Assembly: GCF_022539665.2 (NCBI RefSeq)
Contig: NC_081332.1
Span: forward strand, 1,984,001 to 2,048,000
Direction: 5' to 3'
DNA length: 64,000 bases
Origin: Daphnia carinata
Lineage: Eukaryota
In this document: piece after piece, positions 17,052-64,000 of the stretch
Numbering within the stretch: the stretch's first letter is position 1
Layout: each line of letters begins with the position of its first letter
Notes under the pieces: generated by a model
What the model saw: only the letters and a program-made list of their open reading frames with translations
Told to the model about the DNA's origin: nothing
Database searches by the model: none
Made by a program: the position numbers and the translations under genes

Positions 17052-20000
17052 TAGTTTTCAAAGAAAAAGAAAAGAAAAAGTATATAACGATGGCACCTCA
17101 AGTACGTTTCCTTATAGAACCAGAAACTTGGATTCAGCCAACATATTGCAAACCTATACCAATTGAATCGAGTTTTTATTATTAGACTCGTGAAAATAAG
17201 AAAAACTTAGCTACCAAACAAAGTTTTTACCGTTCATTATTTATTACATCCGTCTCGTTACCAATATGATTCGCCCCTTTTTTTTTGCTGCAAGTTCAAA
17301 CTTGATTCAAAAAAGAAAAAAGAAACGTTACCTTCCAGATGACAAAATGTTTCATTTTGATGAAAACCTATTTTTTCCTATTCGTATGGGCGATCAACTC
17401 GCCTTGAAACTTTGCCTTTCTTTTTACTTCTTAAAAAGTATATATATATTTGATAAGAGTCGAATGGATAGACAGAGGACTTCAATATTCGATGTACCCG
17501 ATTATACGTTGCCATGGAAAACTGATAAACACAGCGCCAACGTGTGAGACAAGCACAAGCGCGTAAGACATCAAAATCAAAAATGTGTTTTTTTTGATTT
17601 TCTTTCAAATAAACGCCCCCCCCCCAATCCCTCCTTGAAAACGTGTGTGTAGATACACTTACCGGTTATTGCTAATGCACATTACCCAACGTATATAACT
17701 ATAGCGTCATTTACACTTGAGAGATTGTTGCCCAGCGGGGCCAGGTGTGCATAACACACGTATATAAAGAATCAGTTCAGCAGGTATACAAGTCCAACTT
17801 CCAAACTCAATAGTTTTTTTTTTTTTTTTGTACCAATGTATCTACAAGGTCTTTTTCTTTTTTTTTTTCAAGGGAGGCGCATCCAGCGTTGCCAATATAC
17901 ATCGAAAAGTTGTCTGAAGCAACTACCCCATCCCCACCCACGTATTTATCGGTGAACGCCATCAGCCCAACTGCATCACTGGGATGGTGGTAATAACGTA
18001 ACACCTGGTGACCTGTTACGCAGCATAAATAACGCAATCGTTTGTCTTTGTTCTACTTTCCTCCGTGCGCTGGGTGCTTCGCAACTGTCGCATAAACTGG
18101 TGTGTGTGGGTGTTTACTTTTGTAACCCCCCCTCCCCCCCGTTGACAAGCAAGTTAAGTTTATTTTTCATTTTCAAAGTTGTTTCTTTTTCTTATGGCCA
18201 CTTCCGCCGTGGCTCGGATGAAGACGTACGGCTGTAAAGGGAATTAAAAGTACCGAGCTTAGATGCAGTTTTCTATTTCTGAGATGTACTTAGGCCCTTC
18301 CTAATACCTACGATTGTAAGTATCTATTAGAAATAGAGGGGGGGGAAAAATCAAGATGATTTATATTTACTGGATTTAGTGGATCAGATATTTCCTCGAT
18401 TTCGTTTCACAATCCTCGTTTTTATTTTCATAAGCTCAGAGCCTCTCTCTTCGTTGTAATGGGAAAAAAAAAATGAGCGGTTAAAGCAAAGAAAAAAAAA
18501 CGAGAAAATAATGATATGCAAGTGGTTAATCGAAATAGAAAGGGTCGCATCAAGCAGCGCTACCTAAAGAGATTGCCAAGTTACGTCACTCGGTAGATGG
18601 CGTTAAAATGTTGGGAAGAAAAGCGATTTCCAAAAAAAAAAAAAATTAATAAAAATCAAATAAAATGTGAGCGCAAAAACGCGCTAAAATGCCCGCCGGC
18701 ATTCTTCACAATTTTGGCCGAGATTCGATGCGTGCGCATAATTTATAATACCACACGCGTCAGTTGGTGTCATTCTTCTCCTCTCTCTCTCTCTGCCCTG
18801 ATTCAAGTTCGACACATTCGTTAGCTTCGAACGTACAACATTGCCAGACGATCTCTTCCGGGGTTATTACACAGAATATGTAAATTCAGAAATACGCGAA
18901 GAGAGCGGTCCGCTTTCGATGAAATTCAAAAGTTCAATCTTTTTTTTTTGTGCAAATTTCTAACCTTTGGAAGGAGCGCAAAATGAAAGATCAACAACAT
19001 TGTCAAGAACGTCGAGAAAAGCTGAGCAATGCTCATTCAAACAAAAATCGGGAAGGAACGCATCATCGCCTTATTTATGATTCAAAATGATAAGATTACG
19101 TTTCTTCTCTTTTTTTTTTCAACAATTGTGCTGATACCAGCAGCCCCCCCCCCCACTCGTTGCCATACCCATCAAAATATTGGACAGCCATGTTATATCA
19201 CGATCGCCTGCGGGGTAATACCCGTCTACAACTTCACGTTATTCCTACATCATTTAAATAACGCCCCCCCCCTCTCGCGTCCAAAATAAAATTTCAATAA
19301 TACCCAAAATAATTTTTTACTCTCTTTTTTTTTTTTTGCAATAAAAATAGAAAAAAAGGCACAGGGTTTCAACTCAATGTGACAATGCAACCCCCCCCCT
19401 CTCTTTTTGCGACAACGTGAGAAGAACACGAGTTATAGCCTCAGGATCAATAGCTTAATACGAGGGTGGGGAGAGGGGGGTCGTGTCTCTCTGCCGCTCA
19501 CGCCCGAACGTGTACACGGTAGAATAATAAAAATAAAAAAAGACGGAACTCCTTTTTTTTTTTTTTCCTATATCATTTTCTGAGTGTGTGTGTGTGTGTG
19601 ACGCGCATTTTTCTCTCTGTTTTTCTGGGTTGACGGCGCCCATGTTTGCCCCGCTCGCCATATATATATATGACCGACTGGCACGCGCTCACACGTATAA
19701 CGACGTCTGTCACGCAAACGACCGTCAGACTCGAACGCGGCCAAACACAGCGAATTATGCGCGCGATATATTCCCCCCCCCCTCCCACAGATTTTTTTTT
19801 TTTTTTTAATGTTCAAAGAAAAGAAAAGAAAAAAAAAAGAAAATTGTTATTACCTTGAATATTTGATAGTAGAGGAAGACCATGATGATGCACGGGATGT
19901 AGAAGGATGAAAGTGAAGAGTAGATAACAAAGTCCGCGTTGTAGAACGCGCAGTCGGTCGAGATACGACGCTCCGAGTAATTCAGACCGAGGACGATGGG

Positions 20001-23000
20001 CAAGCCGATGGCGGCGGAGATGGCCCAAACTAGCCCGATAGTCAGCCAGACTCGTTTGTGGTTCTTGTGGCGGGCGTACTTGATGGGCTGAGTTACGGCG
20101 ATGTACCTGCACACACACACACACACAATAAACAATTTTCATATCTTTCATTTAAAAAAATAGTTCTTTTAACATCCAAAAAATGCTGCAATTGAATGTG
20201 ATGGACGATTAAGAGTTTGATCATGTTGAATTCAAGAAACAAAAATGTATGTCGATTGTGGTGGCGGGAAAAAGGAGCTTGACACACAGTGTGTGTAGAG
20301 GGCGTCGTGAGCTGTCGAAAGAAGAAAAAAATAAAAAGAAAAGAATTCCCGTCCGCGATTGATTTGAAAGCACCAGCCGACGTCAATAACACGCGCCATT
20401 GGGCAAACGGGCAGCCGAATCAAATTGAACCTTTTTGTTGTTATTCTACGCAATCGGATCGGAACAAATAGGCAGAAAAAAAAGAGAACGAACGAACGGA
20501 GGGGGGAAAAAAAAGGTCAAAGGAGATGAAATCAAAACCGATGGGTCTATATGTATTATAATAATAATAATAATAAGAGGGGGGAAAAAAAAAGAAGCGA
20601 GGGACTTTGACGCTGCGCGATTCCAGGCCGACGCTCTTTATTGCATTCTTCAAGATGTTGCTCGCCCCCGTGTAAAAGAGAAGATCCTCTTATATGGCCC
20701 CTCGTCGTCATCAAAAGACATCATTTCCTAATACAAATCTTAGCATTTCTATTTATTGCCGACGATAAGACAAACGCGCAATTATGTCTTCCCTTTTTTT
20801 TTTTCTTGTTTTCTCGTTGATTGTTTTTTTTGCTGTTGTTGAAATTCGCTTCCTTTTTACACGGTCTATACGTCCACAGTTGACATTTGGAATGAATACA
20901 GTATTCAATTCGTTAAGGAATTACTTAGAAAAGCTCTTGCCATGGTCAATATTACATTGACCATGCTCTTGCCAACAAAATTAATGTTATCTCGCGTTTT
21001 AAAGCTATGGATACGGGAAGACACCGTCTAACCTTCATCTGTAATTAAAATGCATTTACGTTTAATACATATTCAAACAGCTGTTAAAAATTTCATTTTC
21101 GTTGATCCGACGTATTAATATCGTTCTGTTTTAAGTTCCCGCTTTTTTTTGGGGGGGGGGCTATTCTATTATGCATGTCATTGATCATGTAAATGTGTTT
21201 AGCTTAAGATGTCGGTTGATCCCTTCTTTTTTCATTAGATGTAAGAGATGACCTGTTGGTAAATATCTCATGAACACGTTTGCATGGCTAACTTTTTCAA
21301 CGCGTACCTCTCCATAATACGAATAGTTCTCATCAATTAAGAAGTTACAGTAGCTTAGAGAAATGAAACTCACGTTGCTTTTCGTCGGTTAGCCCATCAA
21401 ATGTTCAAAATTTCTAAATCGAATTTTCCCCCTCGACCGTTTGATATTTCGTAGAACTTTCGTGTTCTCAAACAGACTCGTTTAAAATCTTTAAAAATTT
21501 TTTTTCTTGTACACTTCCTTCTCTACTAGCAAATTGAATTGCCTTCGCGTAGCTGAGGGCATCGCCGCCGGGAATACGAAAGCCTGCATCGCTGAATGTT
21601 TTTCTCTGTATCCAATATCGTTTAAACGATGATAGATGGCCGAGATATACGCGGATGCAGTTGTTTGCAAAGCCATCAAAAAACATTCATCAATAACAGA
21701 CAACTGGCAACGCTGCAAAACCTAATCTTTTCTTCTTTTTTTACGACCGTAAACGACTGTTCCGATTTTTCGTAAATATAAATTTTAAAAAATGTGACGA
21801 GTACAATAAAAGAAAGAAAAAGACAATTGACTGCTGCGTGCTGACGTTCTACAGCCTTACGGGTAGAACACGAAAAAAAAAGGGGAAAAGGGAAAGAAAA
21901 AACACGCCATCTATTCAGCACGCTCTACTTGTCTGCGTCCTACGATTTCGGCTTGGTGATCATTCGTCTATAAAAACTCAACACACACACACACACGGAT
22001 GTTGTGTGTGTGTGTACAGTGAAAGATTGGATGCATAGGCAGCGGAGCGTGTACAGACGGAATAGAATCACGTCCATCAACTTGGTGGGTTTGCACCGCC
22101 ACTGGATTGAGGCGGTGGCGCTGCGAACCGCACACAATCACCTACTTGTCGTTATTTACAAGTCCAGACAAGTACCACAAGGAGATGCGGTACCGGTGGT
22201 GTGTACGCCGTGCAATGAGAAATGGGGAAACGAAAATGAAATGCTTGTCCACTATCTAAATACACTTTACTTGATTGCACAACTCGAGCGCAATTGCTAC
22301 ATCGTTAAGTTCTCTTCCCCACTTGCCCCGCTCTCCCAAGTGTTGATTTAATAAAAAAAACTTTAGCGATTTCTTGTTTTGTTTGGTACCCCCGTTTGCT
22401 CGAACGTGTTGCCCAAGAAGCGAGAGATCATCAAGGTCAAGATGAAAACAAATTGGGTTTGCATTTCAAGTTGTTAATCAGAGTTTCTTACTTTCGTTGG
22501 TCTTCGATTGAGTGCAAATAGAAAATGTTGTCTCCCCCCCCCCCTTTTTTTTTTAATTCTACCGCCTACACTTGCTGTTTGTCCTTTTCTATAGATGAAA
22601 AATCGTCGTATCATTTGGCCAAAAGTGGGGGGGGGGGATCAGAAAAAACACAAGTCTGTACTTTAAGTAAAACCAACAAAAAAAAAACACTAAACAAGCA
22701 GCGTAAAGTAACGTTTCACGAAGGAAGAAGACAAATAAAAGACGAATGGAAAAGGACGTGCACGAGGCATCTCTGATTGGCTTCTAATTCGCCGTCGAGC
22801 CAAGGATTTACTGCCTCAGGCTGTCGACTCCTCGCTCCCTCAAGGCTTTTGCCTCGCGACTCTAGCCCCTCTGGCATTGTGCGTGTACATTTGCGTGATT
22901 TTCTTCTCCCTTTTTTCTTGATGCATCTCTTTTAGACGATCACGTATAAATGTTTCAAAAAATAAAAACAAACTTTCTTATACTTGTAGAGCAAACCCCA

Positions 23001-51300: not shown

Positions 51301-52620
51301 TGTCGCGCGTTTGTGCAGCACGAGAATGTTGCTTCCTTATCTAGCTATCGATATAAAAAAAAAAAAATTGACAGCGAAATACGTGAACAAAAAAGAAAAA
51401 GAAGAAGAAAAAGGCTCGGTCGCAACAGGCTGCGCAGGCACTCGTACAGGCATAGACCGTGTAACGAGGTCGCATACCAACCGAACCGAATAACTCGATG
51501 ATCATTTAGCTTCCAGACGTTGTATCCATACAATTAGAGAATAAGGACGGGGATTTTTGGCAGCATTCCTACTTGCCAATATATATAGTATAATACGAAA
51601 CTTGGCTGGCGTATTATTGCTCACGATACGTAAAGACAAATAGGAAAGCTTTGTATCCTTCGTTTTGCTATATCCCTCGAAGAAATGCGACCCCCTAATA
51701 CTGCTCCCCCCCCCCCTTTTTTTTGTGTGCGTGTGTGTTAACATTCTAAACAGATGGTCAAACGTGGAGACTCTCACCGTGACGTAAACAGCGAACGGCA
51801 TGACCAACGTAGCGACAAGTAGATCGGCGATAGCCAAACTGATGATGAAGTAATTGGTGGCCGTCTGCAGGGCCCTCTCGCGATACACGCTCAGGATGAC
51901 GAGCACGTTGCCGAAGACGGTCAACAACGGGAACAAGAAGAGCAAGAGGGCCCAGAAATTTTTGGCTTCCATGTCGTCATCGTATCCGTCGATGGTGCCG
52001 TTGGTGTAGTTGGACACATCATCGACGGCCGTCGTCAGGCAGGGCATGCGATTCGGCGCGGCGGACGTGCCGTTCAGGACGCAGCCGGCCGGAAAATGCG
52101 TCGTGCTGTTCAGGTAGGACGAAGCGTCGCGCCAGGTGGTCGTCGTGCTGTTCAACAGCTCCGTCACGGAGCCCAGCCAGTTGGATTCGCTCCGATTGTT
52201 GGCCGTCTTCCCCCTGCCGAGGTGCGTCCAATCGGAGAGCGTCGTGCCGCTGTTGCCGCCGCTCCCGCCGGGCGCGTTGATGCTATTGACGTCACTGTAG
52301 TGCGTGTCGTGAGGTGTTCTCGGGTAGTAGGCGCTACTGGTGCTGGCCCGACCCAACATGGCCGGCCGACCGGCCACGGTAGGTCGAACGAGACGCAGCG
52401 CGCTTCGCTTCGTGTTGAACGCGAACGAGCCGGCCGTTGGGTCGCCGTCGGCCGGTGCCGGCTTGGCTGCCGTCACGCCGCGCACAACGTACCCTTGAAT
52501 TCTGGCCATTTTAGATGAATACCGTTTTGTGCTGGACGCTGTCACTGGAACGACGACCGACGTCACGGTGGCCGTCGTCGTGTCCGCCAACGCGACCGCC
52601 GCTGTCGACAGGCTCTCCAT
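11730..52620 (-). CDS. Dop2R: D2-like dopamine receptor (class A GPCR), about 800 aa, 8 coding exons
   Basis: Exons (minus) 52620-51778, 24090-23981, 20106-19854, 14141-13767, 13690-13551, 13393-13165, 12255-12018 and 11944-11730 have consistent phases and total 2403 nt. Motifs: [32 protein letters not shown], amine-binding Asp in [22 protein letters not shown]5 serines [40 protein letters not shown], and a very short C-tail [10 protein letters not shown] typical of D2-like receptors. Alternative in-frame ATG at 52629. Confidence 0.9.
12265..12308 (+). repeat. Poly(A) run of about 44 nt, which is the poly(U) acceptor tract of Dop2R exon 7 on the minus strand
   Basis: Homopolymer ending a few bases before the aatag acceptor at 12256. 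Confidence 0.9.
13165..14141 (-). CDS. Dop2R: Dop2R ICL3 exons 4-6 (14141-13767, 13690-13551, 13393-13165)
   Basis: [15 protein letters not shown]...DQGSGSQ | D7NNGEE...STEFML...AHLG | NKVPPSG...NGDSNY...KRMK. Phases 0/0, 0/2 and 2/0 are compatible. The exon 6 acceptor is weak, so exon 6 is less certain. Confidence 0.75.
19854..20106 (-). CDS. Dop2R: Dop2R coding exon 3 (ICL2, TM4, TM5)
   Basis: tgcag|(R)[10 protein letters not shown]...[23 protein letters not shown]|gtaata. Confidence 0.92.
23981..24090 (-). CDS. Dop2R: Dop2R coding exon 2 (ECL1-TM3); 110 bp, missed by the ORF track
   Basis: ttcag|[37 protein letters not shown]|gtaaat. Confidence 0.92.
36090..36115 (+). repeat. (GT)n microsatellite
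   Basis: About 13 GT units seen directly; one of many SSRs (e.g. (TA)n at about 6974-6999, (GA)n at about 43318-43342). Confidence 0.85.
51778..52620 (-). CDS. Dop2R: Dop2R coding exon 1 (long extracellular N-terminus, TM1-TM2)
   Basis: Lies inside ORF 51502..52671. Acceptor ttccag places the exon start at 52672; donor ACG|gtgaga at 51777. Encodes [18 protein letters not shown]...VMPFAVYVT. Confidence 0.9.
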
Positions 52621-55600
52621 GGCTATCATCACTATCCGCGTGTATTCCCGAAAGAACTGAACTTGGGACACTCTGGAATTTTGAATGATTAAAATTAAAA
52701 TTAAAAAAAAATAAATAAAAAAAGAACTCGGCGAATTTTTAGATCAGCCGCTGGAAGTTTTCCGTGTACATCCCGACCGATTCCATGGCTATGGAATAAA
52801 AAAAAAAAATCAAAACGATCGACGTTCGGATTTCACATTTTATTTGATTCTCTTTTCAATTAGTTCGCACACAAAATGCATAATTGCACGCCACTTTTCA
52901 CGATAATTTCGTCGCCTTTTGATACGCTCTTGAGATGTTCCGCTGTGAGACTTGGGCGGATGTCGGACGCTATTCAGCTACACTCCATCGTCATCGATGT
53001 ATATTTGCGCACAATCAAAGAACTCGATTACAAGTGAACAACTCTGGCCGGGCGAACGCAGAGCGACGGAAGCGAAGATGCGACTGCACGTCCTACACAA
53101 TCCGCACTAAAGTTTCTATATCTTGTTGTCGCGCCCTCCCTCTTCCTTCCTTGGCGGATGTTCAATCGGCTTTAGATATAGTGTGTGTATATACGTATCG
53201 CATATACCTTTTCGCTGCGCTGCCTGGACTGAGCGGCAGGACAGGCGACACATGCGCACGCACTCAAATGCCGTCTGCATAATACTCTGTCGAATATTCA
53301 TATACGAAATATATATATACATATCCTAGATACAAGCTACTAGATTTTAAAAAAAATAATAAATAAAATGGACAATGACCAGCATCATCAGTTGAACAGC
53401 TTCACTTTGAAATACGAGCCTCTAATCGGAAGAGTATAGACGAACATCTACATGATGGAGACAGGCTTAACTTTTGCGGGAGAAACCATAGAGCTTGCCA
53501 TAAGACCACACTGGACCCCAACAGGATGTTCTACTCTTGTCGTTTCGGAGAAGATGATGTTTACAAGATATTTCGTTAAGGGGAAATGCCTCGCGATCTT
53601 GGATTTAATTGTGATAAATCAACTTTAAAAAAAGCGTAAATCCCATATCCGTTGGCTGGTCTTCGTATATATATACTGTATATAGGCTGTGTTTCAAAGA
53701 TTTGAAGAGGACATATCTTTTGTTCAACGAGACGTCGAACAATTGTCTAGGTGTTTTTTTTTTGTTTTCTGTTTTTGGTGTGGTGGAATGTTCTGGAAGA
53801 TGAGGCTACATACTAATCTGGCGAGTATACGAAATGAATTCAGCCATCCGTGTATTTTTCCATTAGTCTAAAAGATCATGGGCTGACGAATCAAAGCGAG
53901 CACTTGTCGAGCGTGTGTCTAGATAAAATGGGCGAAGGCGTTGAGTGGCCAGGCAAGTGCGTGCTGTATGGCTATATATGCGTGAAAAGTATATAGAGTT
54001 GACACTGCGCGGTGCACTTGCCGCATGTGTCATTATAAAAAAAAAGAAAAAAAAAAAAAAGAAAGGGCGCAATGAAAACTGGAAGAGACACGACAAAGAC
54101 AATGACGACGCGGAGGGTCGTGTCGTTTGTAATGAAATGTGTGTCGCTTCGCGAACGTTACTCGCGCGGATTACATGTATAGGGCTATATAACCGGCGAG
54201 CATCAAGACTTAAGCTTTCACCACCACTAGATATAGCGCCGCCGTAGAACATATATACTCTCGACTGCTTTCTTTTTCGGGTTTAACTACATCATTGGCC
54301 GACCTTAAATCGCGTATAACTATGGCCTACCTTATCGTGGTCGGTTTGCGTTAAAACGAAAAAAGAAAAAAGAGATTCTAGGGCAGTTTCTTTTATTTAG
54401 ATATGCAGTAGGCGCGTGTACACGTATTTCTTACTTCTTTCTTTTTTGTCATTAAACAAAAGAAGAAAACTTTTACTTTGGTATACAGCAGTTTTATTCA
54501 CGGTGACGTATACGCCGTAACCTCTATAGAATCCCTAGCGTGAGAGGCCATGATATACTTCCCTGGCGACCTTGCTCTTGGTAAGGGCTTTTCTTATTTT
54601 TATTTTGCATATCATACCGCCTCTACGTCTTTGCATATACTTCTTGAATAAAACAATGCTCGTGGCATTGCACTCGTTCTCATACAGGAGGTGCATGCAG
54701 TAGAGGGGTGGGTCGGCTAGGGCAGCAAAGAGCTCATTATATGAAATAGTATGACAGAGACAAAAGGTACACGTATAGAGTCACGTATATATAAATGTAG
54801 TAGAAACAGGAAAGCTTTATTGCAATATATAGCCCATGGCCAGCACATACGAAATTTCAGAGATGTGTATGTAATGAGTCCATCGTTTTCGTTTCAACAA
54901 CACGAGTTTGCCAGCAAAACGGACTTTATACTTCGAGGAGGGGCATCGAAGGGAAACAATGAGCAATTCGCATTTTTAGAGCCCCTCTATGTCCTGATGA
55001 GATGTTATTACATTTAGGTACAACCCTGCGAATTCAGAGAGCAAAAGGGTACGAAAGTGGATGGGTAATATTAAGCTGTTCGAAACCTATTTATTCTGTA
55101 AGGTTCACAATCACAATTGAAGATCTAGTTTTAAAGGCTCTGTTTATGTAGTATTTCCTTGGATTTTTAAAGAATTCTTTATCTCTGAAGATACATTCAT
55201 CGCGTGCCCTTTCGTCTATACTGTGTTATCGTGCTCTTCGCCGCGTCAATGACGACCCGCACTGGTCCCCTCCGTATGAAAAAGCCTATATCTTCTTTAA
55301 TGGTTGGGTGCAATGCTTATATAGACTTATGGCAGTGTAAATATAAAAGGAAGCGAACGTAGAGGTGTCAATACAACTTACGGCCACTGCACTGATGCTG
55401 GCCGATAATAAGCCGGGCGTTTCTTTTACGCCTTTGTGCGTCTCCGTCGTTACGGTTGTCCGTGCGTCAAAGATATGTTGTACTTGTCTGCTGCTTTTTA
55501 TACGGAAACACACAATGGACGGACACCGAACAATATCAGGCGGTAAAAATAAAAAAGAAGGAGGATAAAGGAAAACACGTTATTTAATGTTATGAGAGTG

Positions 55601-56099: not shown

Positions 56100-56890
56100 C
56101 TATAAGCCCAATATAAAAACAAACTTGATTTTCGTGATTCGCGTTCCATTTTGAATCGAAATCATGTATTTTAAACTGTATTTAAAATTTTGCCAAAAAT
56201 GAAAAAGTGGGAAGGCTATAGCCTTCTCATTTTTGTCAAAATCGGTCAAAAACGAAATCTCTTGGAATTGGATGAAACTCACACAGTATAATGAAAATTG
56301 AACGCTGATTTTGATTCAGCTATTAGTTTTCTCCTTAACCCAGCCGTTTTGATAATAAAAGAAAAGAGTGAACTTCTTTTGCGCCGTACTGATAGTGATT
56401 CAAAAAACGATTGACTTAATAAAAAAATGACAATTTTGAATCGCATTCGTACCGTACTAGTAAGTGTAATTTTTTGGCGCACAAAATAGCGTTATCAAAT
56501 ATGAAAAATCGATTTCCGTGATAAGCATTCAATTTCGAAAAAAACGATTGACTTTTGTCAAAATCGACCAAAAACGAAATCTCTTGGAATTCGATGAAAC
56601 TCACACAGTATAATGAAAATTGAACGCGGATTTCGATTCAGCTATTAGTTTTCTCTTTAACCTAGCCGTTTTGAAAATTTTGTCAAATGGCGCGCAAGCG
56701 TTATCAAAAAAATTTAAAAAACGATTGACTTAATGAAAAAAATCTTATACTGTATATCTTCTCATTTTTGTCAAATCGGCAAAAATGGATATCTTGCGGA
56801 ATTTCATCAAAATCATTTATTTTGATGCAAAATTCAATGCTGATTTCGAAAAATGCATTTGTTGTGTCGTCAAGCTAACTGTTTTTGAAA
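56100..56890. repeat. AT-rich element with internal direct repeats of about 120-130 bp; probable non-autonomous DNA-transposon remnant
   Basis: Near-identical units at about 56230-56352 and 56553-56674 (ttttgtcaaaatcg..aaaaacgaaatctcttggaatt.gatgaaactcacacagtataatgaaaattgaacgc..gattcagctattagttttctc..aacc.agccgttttga). A diverged third copy sits at about 56759-56888, and aaaaaacgattgact occurs three times. No ORF; the transposon origin is inference. Confidence 0.7.
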
Positions 56891-57184
56891 TAAACATAAG
56901 CAATTACCGGGCGAATTTTCCCTCAAAAATCTGCAAAATCTGACATTCATTGGAATTTTCTTCAAATCACTAAACATACTCAAAATTATAGCTCACCCTT
57001 TAGGACAAGCCGTTTTCTCGGTTGGTGTGAGCGGCCAGCTGATCGGGGCACAAATTCTTTTGAGGCTTAATAACTTATTTTATCACGAAACCTAATTATT
57101 TGATTATATCGTTGAACGCCATTTTACGCGAAAGATATATGTATTTTTAAAGGTGTCTTTGGAATGACTAACAACGCAAAATGT

Positions 57185-57263
57185 TGCCTAGGTTGAACAA
57201 ACATCCGATCATCACCACTGAAAATTCAGTTTCGGTAGACAATTATCATAGTATTCCTAAGCA
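57185..57263 (-). promoter_or_regulatory. SECIS element (type II) in the SelL 3' UTR
   Basis: Minus strand: tgcttaggaatact-ATGA-taattgtctacc-gAAA-ctgaattttcag-t-ggtgatgatcg-GA-tgtttgttcaacctaggca. It has an AUGA/GA core, an approximately 11 bp helix II, unpaired AAA, an apical ministem ctga/tcag, and helix I tgcttagg/cctaggca plus gaata/tgttc. It starts about 22 nt after the TAA. Confidence 0.85.
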
Positions 57264-57285
57264 GCATGTGTTTGCATGTTTTCTG

Positions 57286-58554
57286 TTATGTTTTTATATT
57301 CCGTAGAACATCAAGCATCTCTGTAACATTAGGTCTGTCCGATGGATACTGACAAGCGTAGACGAACACCATTTTCCCGTGTTGATTGAAAATTACATTT
57401 CCCGCCATCTGTAGCGTGGCGTTAACAGATCAGAAATTATGTTATTTTGTTTTTTCAATGTCGTATCACCTGAAGTGGATCATCGATATAATCGGTAAAC
57501 GGCTTCGGTAGTTCTGTACCAACAGCTAATTCTGCGCTATAAAAAAGCATATTCGCAATTCTCCACACCTGCAATCACACGTGAGGGTTAATTGCTTGAA
57601 AGTATGAATATTTAAGGTTCACATGCCTGATAAAGGGAGCGTTTGAACTGCAGCGCCTTGTAAAAATGACGGTCGAAATCAGTCCATATTGGGAAAAGGC
57701 AACCAGTTTCTTTTTGCCATCTTAAGGCTCCATTCTGACAGCCAAATGAGACGACATGGATATCGCAATTCAAAGAAGCAAATGAGTCCTATTCAATCGG
57801 AAAAGATTATTTGAAAATTAAATAATGGAAAATGTATAAATGAATCATACTTTCTGTTCTTCAATATGCTTTATATGCTGCCGTCAAGGTAGTCAGGCAA
57901 AGTGGCGGAGAAATACAAAAAGTGAATATTTGTTGTTATTCGTTATTTGCTTTACCATTGACACAGTATTATCATTGATCCTAGTTAAAGATAATGAGGA
58001 AATCTGTTGTTCGTTGGCAGGGTTCTTATTTTCAGAACACATCTTTTTCTCCATAAACTCGTCGACCGTTAGCAGAAATTCGTCCCATTTTTCCTGGGTG
58101 GAGAGACATGAAAAAAAATAAAAATCAATTGAGTCTTCATTGTAGTAACTGAGGTACAAACCTCAACCAGAAGAAGTTCTTCAACAGCATCCCTTATGCT
58201 ACATTCTGAAAAATAGCTTGCCCACAATTTCTCCAAGGTATCTCGTTTTTCACATCCAGAACTAGTTGTCAAAACAGAAGTTTGAGGTTAACTATTATTT
58301 GAATGTCTTTCAATAATATTACTTTTTGAAAAGAAGCGAATAGCAGTTGGTAACTCGCCATAACATACCGTAGTCTTTCGTGACAAATTCATCAGGGTTC
58401 CCTGTGTAGTTCACATGTTGATTGCAACATAAAGATAGAGCTTATAACTATCTAACTTATTACAACCTGAAAAGCGTAGCTCAGCTTCCACTAGAATTTC
58501 TGTGATTGCAGCTGCTGTTTCTGCCAATAAGTTAGACAATTCAGCAGGATTCAT
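57286..58554 (-). CDS. SELENOL: Selenoprotein L (thioredoxin-like/AhpC-TSA fold, UxxU motif with two selenocysteines), about 297 aa, 7 coding exons
   Basis: Exons (minus) 58554-58467, 58401-58323, 58261-58162, 58093-57851, 57788-57627, 57568-57470 and 57408-57286 join in frame. Exon 4 reads SLFVFLRHFA-TGA-L-P-TGA-RQHIKHIEEQK. The frame continues through family motifs IHVVSFG, FPIWTDFDRHFYKAL, LPKPFTDYIDDPLQMAGNVIF and YPSDRP. An in-frame TAA just upstream fixes the ATG at 58554. A SECIS lies in the 3' UTR. Confidence 0.9.
57884..57895 (-). other. SELENOL: Two in-frame UGA (selenocysteine) codons forming U-L-P-U (57895-57893 and 57886-57884)
   Basis: Minus strand reads GCC TGA CTA CCT TGA CGG, exactly at the CxxC position of the RHFx-CxxC redox motif. 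Confidence 0.9.
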
Positions 58555-61021
58555 CCTTTAGAAAATATCTATACAAAAAAGAAATGAGTAATAGTGCATT
58601 ATTCTCCAGAACTGGAAATCAATGTTCAAGACTACCAAGCACCCAAAGTTACTTCACAGTCTGTGCTAGTATTGGGGAGTAAGATGACTATCTAAAAATT
58701 TTTACATGTATTGATATTTTACATTCTGGCAAAACTTGCTATGCCAGGTATGTGGGATCTTTCATATTCTACACTCAGTCAACACAGAACCTAGCTTTGT
58801 TGTTTTATAAATGATTCAATAGGAAATACAGCTTGAAGTTACATTATACTTCTAACCTTATCATCAACTGCAAAAATATTAAGTACGTACCAAGAATTTC
58901 TTTCTTTCCGTTGTGGACGATAACAAAATAGTCGCGTCCTTACATGACCTTTATCAACGCACAGGAGCATTAAGTTTAGTTACGGTCGTGCGGCAACTTA
59001 GTCAGTCGATTGGCCGTTATCTCAGTTAGAATGCTTGGTGACAAGACCAGGTATATCGAATCGGTACGATGTTGGCCAATAAATTTGGGTTATTATGAAG
59101 TGTTGCCCAGATGAAAGGAACCGAAAGATTAACTGTGAATTTTATGTTTGATTAGGGACAAACAAAACAACTGGTAAACTTCAAACTCATATGGCCAACG
59201 ATTGCGTTCTAAGAAAGGTTAGGCTCGTTGTTGACAGATGGCAGGACTTGTAAATGCAATGAGTCATGAGTTCTTCTAAAGGGGAGCATCAGCTGATAAA
59301 GTGAATAGCCAAGCTGGGATGTGAATAAGTAGCCTGTTTATATATTTTCTGCATCACGAACGTAAGTTGTAAAAACACTTTAAATATCTGATTTGTGTTG
59401 TGCTGTTTATCGATCTCTAAAGTCCCCTGCTTCAATTGTAACTTAGTTCTAAGCACCTTCGTTCAATTTTACATGGAAAAAGTACTAAGTTATCTGGCTA
59501 AATCACCTGGCTGTGTTAGTTGATGCCCATGGATGTCACCAGTTTCGCTAATTTAAATTTCAGGTTATTTCGTTAGGCAGTATCTTTTTCTAATAAAACG
59601 TAAAAATATTAGTATATTTTCGTCTTGTTCACTAGTGTCACCAGTAGCTACAAAGTATTTATAAATGTTTTCCAAACTTGGCTTGCATTATTTTTAAACG
59701 CCGTTTTCCCACATGGGTGTGATCTGTATTGCATCAATCAATCAAAACCTGCTGCATCATAAAGCTCACGCTGTAGAATTAAGCATGCAGTGACGCAGTC
59801 CGCCTCTGGTTTCAAAGAATAGCATTTAGTATCGTTTAACAGTTTTGTCATCCATCATTGTCTTCGGTCCAGGGTTGTCGCTCTATTTATTATTATTTGT
59901 GTTTGTGTATTTTTCACTTGTTTGTTATTTTCATTTTGCTATTTTGGATTCTAGTTCGGAGCTCTAAGACCGATGCTAGGAATGCTCAAGTGTAGGCATT
60001 TGACACGTAATAGTTCCATGCACGTTAAGCAAATAACAACTACGTTTTGTGGGCATTCCTGCATCCAGTGAAACACCTATTTTCTAATTTTGGCATTATT
60101 ACTTGTTTGGGCTCTTCGCCCAGTTTGCGCGTGAGAATGCGTATCATTAATTCGTTTCCCCAGCACTGCAACCGGCAGGGCGCTTGTGCTATTTATTTGT
60201 TTCAGAATCCATCACCTAAATCAATGTATGTAAAACAAAATAGCCTTGAAAAGCGACCTTATTCTCTATAAGGATGTTTCAGTTTAGGTAACTTAAGTGT
60301 TCGAGGCTATGCGGCCTACCATTTAACATAAATATTTGGCATCCAAGATAAACAGTTCGTCCTGAAACATAACGATTGCGATATACAAGCGATGATACTT
60401 ACTTTGATTCGAAAACATTTTCCTCAGTATGACGTTATGTAATAATTTTCTATTTATCTTGAACTTTCAGATGTCTAAGGGACTAGGATAAAAAGAAGGA
60501 TAGATTCAGATTCCACGAGACCCGGCTACTGCCAAGGCCAGCAACTGGAATAAACCTATGCGCAAATAAAAGACATTCCGTCACGAAAATAAACTATTCT
60601 TGCGCAGACGTGCAGGTCCTAGGTGCATGGGCAAAGCTTCAGAACTGAAAACGCATCAACCTTCGTCAGGTCGTTCGCATTGGAAGCTTTAACCGTGTTC
60701 ATTTATACTTACAGTGCCAATATTAGGTAAATATTAAACCATACTATTCACATCTACTGGATTTTCCGAGTTCTAGTCAGCGATTCTTACGTGATATTCA
60801 CGTCTGTTACTCATTGCGAATAACCGCATTTTTTCCACAAATTTGTTGTGCAGGAACAACGTCATTGTCTTCCAATGCAAAGAAATGGGCTTCGTAAGTA
60901 TTTCTTCTTATGTTTGTAATGTTTGCAATATCAATTTCTAAAAACACAACATTCTTTCAATGTAGAAGGAAAATAAGTAGGATACTGCGCATTTGTCGCT
61001 AGCCCAACTCTACGATTCGCA

Positions 61022-64000
61022 ATGTCAGAAGGAGCCCAAAAAATTGGCTTAACTAAGCCAACTGTGTTTGCAGCTGTGAATGGCAATACACCGTCGCATA
61101 GCAGCAACAATCCGCCTGCAGTGATACCCAAATTCAAGATAAGTCGAGGCACTCAAGCGAACGTCTCTGTTCCAAAAAACGTGACAAAGTTTTCACCACC
61201 AGTGCCTGCTAAACCGGCTGCTCTTTCCAAACAGCCGAGATCACCTGCACCGCCAGTGCCGCCGAAACCAGGATCAGCCCTAAAATCTCCACTCAAACCG
61301 GCTGTGGCGCCCAAGCCTATCTTGCCCCCTAAACCTCTCGTCAGACCTTGTAAGTCTGGAAGTGTTACATTCGAAACTACAGTGCCACCAAACGTTCCGA
61401 TACGCAATCGCGGTGAGCAATCCCCTCGTGCCGATCAAACAGAAAAATCCATTCCCATGTATGAAGAAAAAGTTCCTATAAGTTCAGCACATCTTGTAGT
61501 CAAGCAATCCCGAAAGAGCGCCAGTCTGGGTCGTTTGGAAGGTGTGCGATGCTGTGCAATGCTCGTCAAAGAAGGAAACGAAAGGTGTTTGCAACGGGAT
61601 TCTGGTTTCATATCCTGCAGCCTGGAAAATGTTGAACAGCCTGCTGTAAAACTCACCAACCAACGTCTAGGCTTCCCTTTTAGCTCTATTCCCATCGCTC
61701 CACCTAGAAGACGAAGGAAGTCAGTCGAGAGTTATGAACCAATTTACGCTGTTATTGATTTCTCGAAGAAACGTAATCGACGGATGTTATTAGCGCAAGA
61801 ACAAGCAGCTCGGGACAACCTGCATCAACCAATTGTGCAGAATGCTGATAAAGATATCGAAGCTAGTCCTGTTAGTTTGGTTGAAAAAGACAAAAGTGTA
61901 CCAACAACCCCTTCAGTTTGTTCTGTCAATGAAGACGAAACTTCTGTGCCAGAGAGCCCAGCCTTAGAAATGGATGTTTCAAATTCGATGATCGCCACCA
62001 GTGAAATGGATTCGGATATCCAAATAATAGAAAATTCTTTTGCTACGATTGCTTCTCTATTTGAAAATATTAATGATACTGGTGATAGTGTACCCGTACC
62101 TTCCCGACCTACATTAACTAGGGAGTCGGAGGATGTGCAGGAAGATTCGAGCTCCTCTTCCAACAACCAGCAGGAGGAAGAAACTACTACAGCTGGGCAA
62201 GCAGTTATTGCCCGCCTGGTATTCGGCGGCACAGTAGTCCAACAAACGGACATTCTACCTGTAAGTTTTGGGTTTTTCATACGAGGGATTTTCCTAACCG
62301 GTAGTAGATAAGCAAAAGTTCATTATCAATTCGGTAGACAATGTCCACAAACGATAATAGAAGAAAACGAACAAAAGAATTCTGCACGGCTTTAAAGGAC
62401 GTCATACCGTCAACGGGTTTCGACTTGTTGACTGACACCGTATCCGTCCGCGAGCGGAAAATCAATCTTCGCGAACCAAGCCCAACTCCATCGGCGAGCA
62501 GTAACAGCAGTAGCGATAGCAAAGAAGACGAGTTTTTTCCTGGCAAGCACTTTGATCCAGACGTTGTATCTTGTGGCAGCTTAGGTAAGAAACGAATAAC
62601 AATTTTTATCGTGTGTACAATCTTTAACTGACTGAATTGGTTCCAGGTGATGTTGACACTTCGGACGCCACACGCCAGAATTCTGTGGATGATGAGATTG
62701 AAACTGCCCAAATGACGGGAAATGCCAGCACAAGTGTAGATGGAAAGGAGAGAAGAAATTCATTTGGACTCCGTCGTACGCTAGACACGCTTTTCACTTC
62801 CTTGAGTAACAAATCAGGTATTCGGAAAGCCGCCGAAAAGCGTAAAACCCTTGACTTCGATAGCTCAAGCACAGATACGGATAGCATAACTGCTGCGCCT
62901 CGTCCGCATATATTCATTTCTCGTCCAGCTCCTCCTCAGCCTAGTCATAAATTCAATAGAGGTGATCGGTATGTTGGCTATCATATATTAATTTTTGTTT
63001 TTCTCGTGATTTTAATTTATTCGTTCTTATTAATTTCTCGTAGAGCATACAGATCAGTCCAACCACCTGAAAAGGGAAGATCAAAAAGCATAGATGGGAG
63101 TCTAGTTGAAAAAGTGGACAGAAGGCACGTTTCACTCAGCCCCGTGATTAGTAGTCCTGAACCCGTTGCGGCTCAACAAGGTCAGATTGTTAACCTTGAT
63201 CAACCAGAGTCTTCCTCTTCGGCTTCTACTCATAATTACGCAAATGAACCAGGTACTTTTTTATCGGTAGATTGTTACCTGTTCATTAGGATATAGTCCG
63301 TTAAGAAAAATTTTATTACTAGGATTGTGTCTTCCGTTGATGGAACAAAATTCTGATCGAACTAGGGCATGTTTACCTGATGGTTCGTCTTCGGAAATGG
63401 AAAAAGACATTATGTACCGTTCATTGGAAGGCAAGGAAAGAAAAGCTTACATGACAGCAAAGGAAATTGCAAGTTCCGAACGTGTGTTTGTGGATTGCCT
63501 TCGACTTATCTGTGACGATTTTCGTCAAGCTGTCAAGGATGCTGCCATTGGGAGTAATGGCAGAGATACATTACATCCTGTCATCCCCGAAGCAGAATTG
63601 AACAAAATTCTCAATTATCTCCCGCAGCTGCAGAACCTTAATCACGAATTGCTAAATGATTTCGAATTGCGTCTCAAAAATTGGTCCACTCAACCGAAAA
63701 TCGCTGATGTCATTGTTCGCAAAGGACCGTTTCTCAAACTCTATTCGGCATACATCCGCGATTTCCAAAGCCAATCCGCCCAACTGGAAGAATGCATCCA
63801 AAAATATCCACGTTTCGCCAAAGTTCTCAAACAATTCGAACAATCCGGCAGATGCAAGAGTCTTTCGCTAAAACATTATATGCTTAAACCTGTGCAGGTA
63901 TTTTCTGTTCTGTCAAGCAGCAATGTGAATTCATTTTAATCTAGTATGGTTCTTAGCGACTACCGCAATACCGTCTTCTTCTGGAAGTCTATCTCCGGCA
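61022..64000 (+). CDS. FYVE, RhoGEF and PH domain-containing protein (FGD family, FGD5/6-like), 5' part; truncated by the window end
   Basis: Exons 61022-62260, 62338-62584, 62647-62968, 63044-63252, 63323-63897 and 63957->64000 join in frame. Pro-rich N-terminus (PPVPAKP, PPVPPKP, PAVAPKP), then a DH domain: KAYMTAKEIASSERVFVDCLRLI...ILNYLPQLQNLN...IADVIVRKGPFLKLYSAYIRDF...LKHYMLKPVQRLPQYRLLL. PH and FYVE domains would lie outside the window, so the subfamily call rests on the DH sequence. Confidence 0.85.

What the first reader, a model, noticed from the sequence alone, without database searches (positions are those of the whole stretch)
57286..58554. Hidden two-selenocysteine gene: selenoprotein L with a UxxU redox motif
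Seen: a 7-exon gene whose frame is interrupted by two TGA codons 6 nt apart (RHFA-U-LP-U-RQH) at the thioredoxin CxxC position, then continues in frame for about 138 more residues of AhpC/TSA-like sequence. The ORF track shows only two unexplained fragments (57893..58159, 58069..58272). Known: SelL is the selenoprotein family with a UxxU motif forming a diselenide bond, patchily distributed in fish, some aquatic invertebrates and marine bacteria, and absent from mammals and Drosophila. Inference: this is a functional double-recoded gene that standard gene callers would truncate or call a pseudogene. The family is known, but its function is largely uncharacterised.
Basis: partly seen in the sequence, partly recalled or inferred. 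Interest (0 to 1): 0.9.

Follow-up and report, generated by a model that had tools for sequence, protein, structure and literature searches.

The report
Water-flea two-selenocysteine selenoprotein L gene
This is an intact water-flea gene whose two neighbouring 'stop' codons sit at a redox active site and are likely read as selenocysteine, making it a likely new member of the already known selenoprotein L family that public Daphnia records cut in half: sound, but ordinary.

Summary
Confirmed. Seven minus-strand coding exons (58554-57286; one GC-AG intron) give a 297-aa frame with TGA at codons 156 and 159 and 138 residues after them. The host is a Daphnia-like crustacean: 133-137 of the first 155 residues match four Daphnia-type records, all ending exactly at the first TGA. 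RNA contigs of a 90-95% identical relative (one study) join across all six introns and keep both TGAs. A SECIS-like hairpin lies 36 nt after the stop (57249-57203) and is conserved, with compensatory changes, in two distant homologues; Rfam's models did not find it. Exons 4, 5 and 7 hit NCBIfam 'SelL-related redox protein' in order; the closest full-length homologue passes its cut-off and folds as a helical bundle plus a peroxiredoxin-like thioredoxin domain. No named fish SelL could be fetched, and selenium incorporation is untested. New member of a known family; the scan noted SelL before in another genome. Interest 0.3, not 0.9.

The parts
58891..59021 (-). Non-coding 5' exon (3' end exact, 5' end approximate)
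   Evidence: 131-nt loose end of RNA contig in X3 matches this stretch by eye; GT donor at 58890, AG acceptor at 58570-58569; an in-frame TAA 6 nt before the ATG excludes a longer N-terminus
58467..58568 (-). First coding exon; ATG at 58554
   Evidence: Daphnia records start at the same Met
58323..58401 (-). Coding exon 2
   Evidence: joints in X1 and X3
58162..58261 (-). Coding exon 3
   Evidence: joints in X3 (5' side) and X1, X3 (3' side)
57851..58093 (-). Coding exon 4, holds both in-frame TGA codons
   Evidence: NF040769 positions 23-50, E 5.9e-09
57893..57895 (-). TGA 1 (codon 156), likely Sec; aligns to the first Cys of CxxC
   Evidence: profile alignment to 9us9 and ResA
57884..57886 (-). 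TGA 2 (codon 159), likely Sec; aligns to the second Cys of CxxC
57627..57788 (-). Coding exon 5 (AhpC/TSA_2 part), followed by a GC donor
   Evidence: PF13911 E 2.8e-06, 28.1 bits over cut-off 27; NF040769 53-103
57569..57626 (-). GC-AG intron, 58 nt
   Evidence: 58-nt skip in 4 of 4 runs
57470..57568 (-). Coding exon 6
   Evidence: joints in 4 of 4 runs; 5 synonymous, 0 non-synonymous listed changes
57286..57408 (-). Coding exon 7 to the TAA stop
   Evidence: NF040769 139-172; joint in 4 of 4 runs
57203..57249 (-). SECIS-like element (type II form: AUGA core, about 10-bp helix, unpaired AAA, mini-stem, GA on the 3' side)
   Evidence: best of 6 loose candidates in the window; same element in L035 and, cut by the contig end, L058; transcribed to 57137 in the relative

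Best explanation
This is an intact, multi-exon gene of a Daphnia-like water flea whose two in-frame TGA codons are likely decoded as selenocysteine with the help of one SECIS-like hairpin just after the stop, giving a predicted 297-residue selenoprotein L that would act as a thioredoxin-type reductase. Shown: the exon structure, both TGAs, the hairpin, splicing and TGA retention in a close relative, and truncation in public records. Inferred from established Sec biology: SBP2, eEFSec and tRNA-Sec read both UGAs through the single SECIS. Predicted from a homologue's model: an N-terminal helical bundle (about 110 aa) followed by a peroxiredoxin-like thioredoxin domain with U156-x-x-U159 at the CxxC position; no signal peptide or membrane helix is evident, so likely soluble and cytosolic. 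Inferred mechanism (about 50%): U156 selenolate attacks an oxidised substrate (most likely a peroxide or endoperoxide, as human prostamide/prostaglandin F synthase does with its CxxC), U159 resolves the adduct to a diselenide, and a low-potential reductant resets it; the helical bundle likely selects the substrate or partner.
For: In-frame splice model. RNA contigs join across all six introns: last two in 4 of 4 runs, introns 1 and 3 in 2 of 4, introns 2 and 4 in 1 of 4; both TGAs unchanged in a spliced contig with 21 listed differences elsewhere in exon 4. 107 of 119 metagenome loci with the double-TGA motif are homologous at E<=1e-5, 15 over 250 or more residues with the frame open on both sides; best is L035, 45.5% over 292 aa. 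33 of 36 collection proteins that reach the motif end there or read WxxW. SECIS mini-stem pair changes A-U / U-A / C-G across window, L035, L058; a loose SECIS pattern is found in 8 of 17 homologue 3' ends, several being cut short. NF040769 hit in order by exons 4, 5, 7 and by 13 of 15 alignment members, L035 at 125.4 bits over cut-off 120. Model of L035: pLDDT 91.6; best Foldseek hit human prostamide/prostaglandin F synthase, E 9.8e-10; VIA Z 18.1-18.6 tie among BCP/PrxQ peroxiredoxins and that synthase; motif aligns to its CxxC. Maximum 19-residue hydropathy 1.12. Literature passages: two Sec, one SECIS (PMC3316567); diselenide, aquatic range (PMC2397514; PMC13134290); D. pulex has tRNA-Sec and 16 selenoproteins (PMC5330540).
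Against: No RNA from this organism itself: the contigs are 90-95% identical, from one study, no contig spans both TGAs and the SECIS, and the intron-4 joint has only 20 nt on its short side. Rfam gave no SECIS match up to E 10 and the hairpin's folding z-score is -0.04. Exon 7 alone shows 1 synonymous and 5 non-synonymous listed changes (pN/pS 1.48). No homologue fetched is named selenoprotein L. The DNA scan demanded TGA at both sites, so it cannot measure how often TGA is kept. Three records (two species) read CxxC. The fold is of a 45%-identical stand-in. No substrate evidence at all; no genome is held, so the Sec machinery of this organism was not checked.
Confidence: 0.9

Rival explanations
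1. The gene ends at the first TGA and makes a 155-aa protein, as the public Daphnia records say; the rest is 3' UTR or a decaying remnant.
For: D. magna and D. sinensis records are 155 aa. Exon 7 pN/pS 1.48 on few changes. Rfam finds no SECIS.
Against: 138 downstream codons stay open over three introns and match the family profile in order; exons 5-7 pN/pS 0.26; the cut falls inside the thioredoxin domain (model strand 151-155 precedes the motif); conserved SECIS; the first TGA lies 306 nt before the last exon junction, a nonsense-decay position by general knowledge.
Confidence: 0.04
2. Same gene and same Sec decoding, but the diselenide is a stable structural, sensing or selenium-holding bond rather than a catalytic intermediate.
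For: Diselenides have very low redox potential and are hard to reduce (PMC2397514, passage). No activity for SelL was found in the papers I could read.
Against: The motif sits at the catalytic CxxC position of a Trx fold with flanking residues near-invariant from bacteria-like to animal loci; three records read CxxC, which would fit interchangeable redox chemistry if they are true Cys forms.
Confidence: 0.25
3. It is a SelU/PRXL2-type (prostamide/prostaglandin F synthase-like) protein or another AhpC/TSA_2 subfamily that reached UxxU independently, not a true SelL orthologue.
For: Best sequence and Foldseek match in the PDB is PRXL2B. UxxU also occurs in some SELENOW proteins (PMC7539508). No named SelL was aligned.
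Against: Identity to PRXL2B is only 17-21% against 27-48% to full-length UxxU homologues; NCBIfam's only consistent hit is the SelL-related model; homologues turn up in Trichoplax, Capitella and Branchiostoma, genera in which one SelL each is reported (PMC3473315 Table 1).
Confidence: 0.04
4. TGA is read as Trp or Cys by a variant code or by leaky read-through, not as Sec.
For: 14 collection proteins read WxxW.
Against: Those W calls come from gene callers using another code on intron-containing DNA (P0006 runs through introns out of frame; P0010 equals locus L116 with TGA); Trp cannot serve a CxxC site; SECIS present.
Confidence: 0.02

Closest known systems
Selenoprotein L (SelL, SELENOL) of fishes and aquatic invertebrates (Shchedrina et al. 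2007 PNAS 104:13919, PMC1955791; not held, known to me through citing passages in PMC3316567, PMC2397514, PMC13134290, PMC2874816)
   Same: Two Sec two residues apart, one SECIS, peroxiredoxin-like thioredoxin domain, aquatic animal host.
   Different: Freshwater crustacean host; a GC-AG intron; no difference in kind found.
NCBIfam NF040769 'SelL-related redox protein' (173 positions, prokaryotic)
   Same: Exons 4, 5, 7 match positions 23-50, 53-103, 139-172 in order; L035 passes the cut-off.
   Different: The animal form adds an N-terminal helical bundle of about 110 aa that the short, about 185-aa bacteria-like UxxU loci lack.
Human prostamide/prostaglandin F synthase (PRXL2B/FAM213B; PDB 9us9, 9usa)
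   Same: Same fold; the motif aligns to C44-x-x-C47; it reduces the endoperoxide of PGH2 through that dithiol (PMC12938796, abstract and passages).
   Different: 17-21% identity, Cys instead of Sec, no N-terminal bundle; substrate cannot be transferred from it.
BCP/PrxQ peroxiredoxins (2a4v, 3drn, 5enu, 5epf)
   Same: Z 18.4-18.6, rmsd 1.9-2.7 over 145-149 residues.
   Different: 14-17% identity; their peroxidatic motif (recalled: PxxxT/SxxC with a resolving Cys further on) is not what the window shows.

Membership tests
Selenoprotein L (SELENOL) | Two in-frame UGA codons forming UxxU at the CxxC position | tested here: met
Selenoprotein L (SELENOL) | Peroxiredoxin-like (AhpC/TSA) thioredoxin fold | tested here: met
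   PF13911 over cut-off on exon 5; fold shown on the 45%-identical homologue L035
Selenoprotein L (SELENOL) | One SECIS element in the 3' UTR, by consensus features and conservation | tested here: met
   own loose pattern scan, best of 6 in the window; conserved with compensatory pairs in L035 and L058
Selenoprotein L (SELENOL) | SECIS recognised by a curated covariance model | tested here: inconclusive
   no Rfam SECIS match up to E 10 in 56500-59000; SECISearch3 not available
Selenoprotein L (SELENOL) | Match to a SelL family profile | tested here: met
   NF040769: three of four exons tested hit in order, each under the whole-protein cut-off; L035 125.4 bits over 120. The model is 'SelL-related', built for prokaryotes
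Selenoprotein L (SELENOL) | Orthology to named fish or tunicate SelL | tested here: inconclusive
   three protein searches returned no record named SelL; indirect: homologues in genera with one reported SelL; Atlas hits to unnamed chordate clusters at 0.98 and 0.94
Selenoprotein L (SELENOL) | Selenium incorporated at both sites and intramolecular diselenide bond | not testable with these tools
   needs labelling or mass spectrometry
Selenoprotein L (SELENOL) | Host has the Sec machinery | not tested
   no genome held for the window; D. pulex has tRNA-Sec and 16 selenoproteins (PMC5330540)
SelU / PRXL2 (prostamide/prostaglandin F synthase-like) | Closer in sequence to PRXL2 proteins than to SelL-related proteins | tested here: inconclusive
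   PRXL2B E 8.5e-08 to the profile against NF040769 E down to 2.7e-41; no tree with SelU sequences was built
UxxU-type SELENOW | Small Rdx-domain protein | tested here: not met
   297 aa; Pfam scans give AhpC-TSA families and no Rdx

The most novel reading that the evidence does not exclude
SelL is the aquatic, all-selenium counterpart of prostamide/prostaglandin F synthase: a lipid endoperoxide reductase cycling through a diselenide, aimed by an N-terminal helical bundle that has no named family, and reset by a low-potential diselenide reductase still unknown. Daphnia, where the gene hides as a truncated 'uncharacterized protein', would be the first genetically tractable invertebrate in which to find its substrate and that reductase.
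Probability: 0.12. Interest if true: 0.65.

Novelty: new member of a known kind. Interest (0 to 1): 0.3.

Why it matters
It corrects an annotation error that is shown here to be real and general: Daphnia records stop at the first TGA, other records read the codons as Trp or skip the motif. SelL is the textbook protein with a natural diselenide, and its function is still only 'redox-related' (PMC13134290, 2026). Daphnia is a standard animal for selenium toxicity work and can be knocked down or edited (own knowledge), so it offers a cheap test of SelL function. A specialist would not be surprised: SelL is reported across aquatic invertebrates. I found no paper naming SelL in Daphnia, but the founding paper and most supplements could not be read, so it may well be listed there.

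Tried and rejected
Rfam scan: six weak non-SECIS matches, all under gathering score, taken as chance. Folding energy of the SECIS region (z -0.04) and of the TGA region (z -0.37): no signal. A conserved RNA element around the UGAs: suggested by 0 changes in 72 nt against the close relative, but third codon positions vary freely among 63 distinct eukaryote-like loci and no shared hairpin appears; rejected as a deep feature. First splice model had two boundaries off by one base, corrected. A longer N-terminus as in P0018: excluded by an in-frame stop upstream of the ATG. N-terminal domain: no consistent Pfam family, no PDB sequence match under E 0.1, no Foldseek match under E 0.001, best VIA Z 9.4 among common helical bundles: no assignment, which does not show a new fold. 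MAFFT alignment of three SECIS elements misplaced a bulge; pairs were read from a pattern parse instead. Tree of 30 rows was the quick version only; window groups with L035 and L058 (support 100), backbone unresolved, no named SelL or SelU in it. 12 of 119 pattern loci were chance matches; P0013 and P0027 were not pursued. Paper searches 'selenol' and a motif word returned only unrelated papers. Supplements: PMC3473315 unreadable; PMC13134290 and PMC5330540 held no SelL text; centipede Table S26 read, lists 20 selenoproteins without SelL. Runs X1-X4 hold only 5-6% of the words; used only after laying them, and no habitat claim is made. No complex prediction was run.

Full report
Observation. 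The window is eukaryotic DNA of about 40% GC. Six-frame reading of the minus strand and a splice model give seven coding exons, 58554-58467, 58401-58323, 58261-58162, 58093-57851, 57788-57627, 57568-57470 and 57408-57286, with introns of 65, 61, 68, 62, 58 and 61 nt. Five are GT-AG, the fifth is GC-AG. The joined frame is 297 codons plus TAA, broken only by TGA at codons 156 and 159, and 138 residues follow the second. TGA-N6-TGA occurs 46 times in the window on both strands, so the codon pair itself is not rare; its context is what counts.

Host. A search with exon 4 among longer proteins gave 3 hits of 19 candidates; they and their clusters include Daphnia sinensis KAI9559740.1 and D. magna XP_032793986.2 (LOC116930702) and KZS04637.1. 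All three are 155 aa, unnamed, and end at the residue before the first TGA. The window product matches four such sequences at 133-137 of 155 positions, which confirms exons 1-4 and places the host among Daphnia-like cladocerans, not identical to either species. No genome is held for the window.

Transcripts. Four RNA runs of one study hold a relative 90-95% alike; its residue changes in exon 4 are those of the D. magna-type records. Contigs join across all six introns: the last two in 4 of 4 runs (including the 58-nt GC-AG intron), introns 1 and 3 in 2 of 4, introns 2 and 4 in 1 of 4, the intron-4 joint with only 20 nt on one side. One 659-nt contig, spliced across introns 1-3, covers 57850-58095 with 23 differences, 21 of them listed, all between 57923 and 58060; none is listed in 57850-57922, where both TGAs lie. 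The same contig has a 131-nt loose end that matches, by eye, the window upstream of a GT donor at 58890, a non-coding 5' exon. Limits: these are contigs of another species, from one study, and none spans both TGAs and the SECIS.

Selection. From the listed differences only, exons 5-7 carry 10 synonymous and 9 non-synonymous changes over 118 codons (pN/pS about 0.26); exon 6 has 5 and 0, exon 5 has 4 and 4, but exon 7 has 1 and 5 (1.48), which tells against constraint on the C-terminal exon, on small numbers. The 5' part of exon 4 gives 0.16.

Homologues. The closest are intron-free L035 (45.5% over 292 aa) and L058 (48% over 283 aa), which group with the window at support 100 in a quick tree. 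A set of about 185-aa, bacteria-like loci carries the same motif without the N-terminal part. This scan required TGA, so it shows that open frames flank the pair, not how often the pair is kept. For P0010 and P0015 the W is shown to be TGA in loci L116 and L099; P0011 did not match L099 letter for letter. Whether the Biomphalaria and Patiria CxxC records are true Cys is open. Branchiostoma, Capitella and Trichoplax records skip the motif altogether.

SECIS. A hairpin starts 36 nt after the stop (57249-57203): AUGA core, a helix of about 10 pairs with one bulge, unpaired AAA, a 4-bp mini-stem, and GA on the 3' side. It ranks first of 6 loose candidates on both strands of the window. L035 has the same element 50 nt after its stop, and L058 has it cut by the contig end; the last mini-stem pair reads A-U, U-A and C-G in the three. 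The loose pattern found candidates in 8 of 17 homologue 3' ends examined, several of which are under 100 nt long. In the RNA relative no difference is listed between 57180 and 57253, against 11 substitutions and one insertion in the UTR on either side, but not all differences are listed. Against: Rfam reports no SECIS up to E 10 and the folding z-score is -0.04; the non-standard core pairs are outside that energy model (own knowledge).

Family and fold. Exon 5 passes Pfam AhpC-TSA_2. Exons 4, 5 and 7 hit NCBIfam NF040769 'SelL-related redox protein' at positions 23-50, 53-103 and 139-172; exon 6 does not. 13 of 15 alignment members hit it, the two misses matching in number the two truncated Daphnia records, and L035 passes the cut-off. 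The model of L035 (pLDDT 91.6, pTM 0.87, 15 sequences, U as C) has four helices to residue 109, then a thioredoxin domain. Foldseek ranks human prostamide/prostaglandin F synthase first (E 9.8e-10, 18% identity); VIA ties it (Z 18.3, rmsd 2.3, 141 aligned) with BCP/PrxQ peroxiredoxins (Z 18.4-18.6). The motif aligns to that synthase's C44-x-x-C47 and to the CxxC of ResA. The N-terminal bundle alone has no family or clear fold match.

How it likely works. Shown: gene structure, both TGAs, hairpin, splicing and TGA retention in a relative. Inferred from established Sec biology: one SECIS recruits SBP2, eEFSec and tRNA-Sec to read both UGAs, as stated for SelL (PMC3316567, passages). Predicted: a soluble protein, since no hydrophobic segment exceeds 1.12. 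Inferred, about even odds: U156 attacks an oxidised substrate, U159 resolves to a diselenide, and a strong reductant resets it. By analogy with the closest structure, which reduces the endoperoxide of PGH2 through its dithiol (PMC12938796, abstract and passages), a peroxide or endoperoxide is my first guess; at under 21% identity the substrate is not transferable. The main rival on mechanism is a stable, non-catalytic diselenide, since such bonds are hard to reduce (PMC2397514, passages).

What is known. SelL has two nearby Sec that can form a diselenide and a peroxiredoxin-like motif, and is found in nearly all vertebrates except tetrapods (PMC13134290, passages); it is restricted to aquatic organisms and is listed in five of six marine invertebrate genomes (PMC3473315, section 5) and in Ciona (PMC2874816, passages). 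The centipede table has none (PMC4244043, Table S26). D. pulex has tRNA-Sec and 16 selenoproteins, not listed in the passages seen (PMC5330540). The founding paper (Shchedrina 2007) could not be read; PMC2500217, PMC4414376, PMC7539508 and PMC9312934 were seen as passages only. Searches for SelL in Daphnia or crustaceans found no such statement; unread supplements may hold one. The scan's own notes record a SelL locus in another animal genome and bacterial UxxU relatives; these came after my reading was set and were not checked.

Verdict. Real, intact, very probably a double-Sec SelL; new member of a known kind. Confidence 0.9 for identity and decoding, about 0.5 for the catalytic cycle. Interest 0.3.

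Noticed in passing
window 1044-1838 (+): Last exon of a SelO-family gene (PF02696, E 4.7e-51) ending in CSS then TAA, with no TGA at the C-terminus: a non-Sec SelO form 55 kb from the SelL gene.
   Followed up: partly
window 51502-52743 and 19806-20138 (-): Two exons of a rhodopsin-family GPCR (PF00001) about 31 kb apart; looks like a D2-type dopamine receptor (recalled resemblance, not tested).
   Followed up: partly
window 60977-63939 (+): Start of a gene with a proline-rich N-terminus and a RhoGEF domain (PF00621, E 1.8e-25), divergent from the SelL gene; FGD-like by recall.
   Followed up: partly
window 56231-56356 and 56553-56678: 126-nt direct repeat, 94% identical, 322 nt apart, in an AT-rich stretch downstream of the gene; possibly a repeat element.
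   Followed up: no
window 57851-57922: No difference to the close relative over 72 nt around both TGAs (0 of about 14 synonymous sites) against pS 0.48 in the rest of exon 4; not conserved in distant homologues. Unexplained; may be a splicing or recoding signal local to Daphnia, or chance.
   Followed up: partly
L004, L005, L025, L027 and related loci, just after the second TGA: In 12 of 12 distinct bacteria-like loci three codons 4-6 places after the second TGA are invariant at DNA level, and three loci folded show a hairpin there: a likely bacterial SECIS serving the UxxU pair.
   Followed up: partly
L029 3' UTR, offsets 33 and 281: Two similar SECIS-like elements in one SelL-like transcript.
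   Followed up: no
L009, L011, L070, L079: Divergent UxxU homologues with long C-terminal extensions, hydrophobic at the end in L009, L011 and L079: possibly membrane-anchored forms from protists.
   Followed up: no
P0060, P0062, P0063; P0029, P0030: Public Branchiostoma, Capitella and Trichoplax models skip the motif segment; Biomphalaria and Patiria records read CxxC, true Cys or U written as C unknown.
   Followed up: partly
L099, L116: Two further cladoceran-like genomic loci keep both TGAs and show a GT donor-like sequence after the same codon as the window's exon 4.
   Followed up: partly
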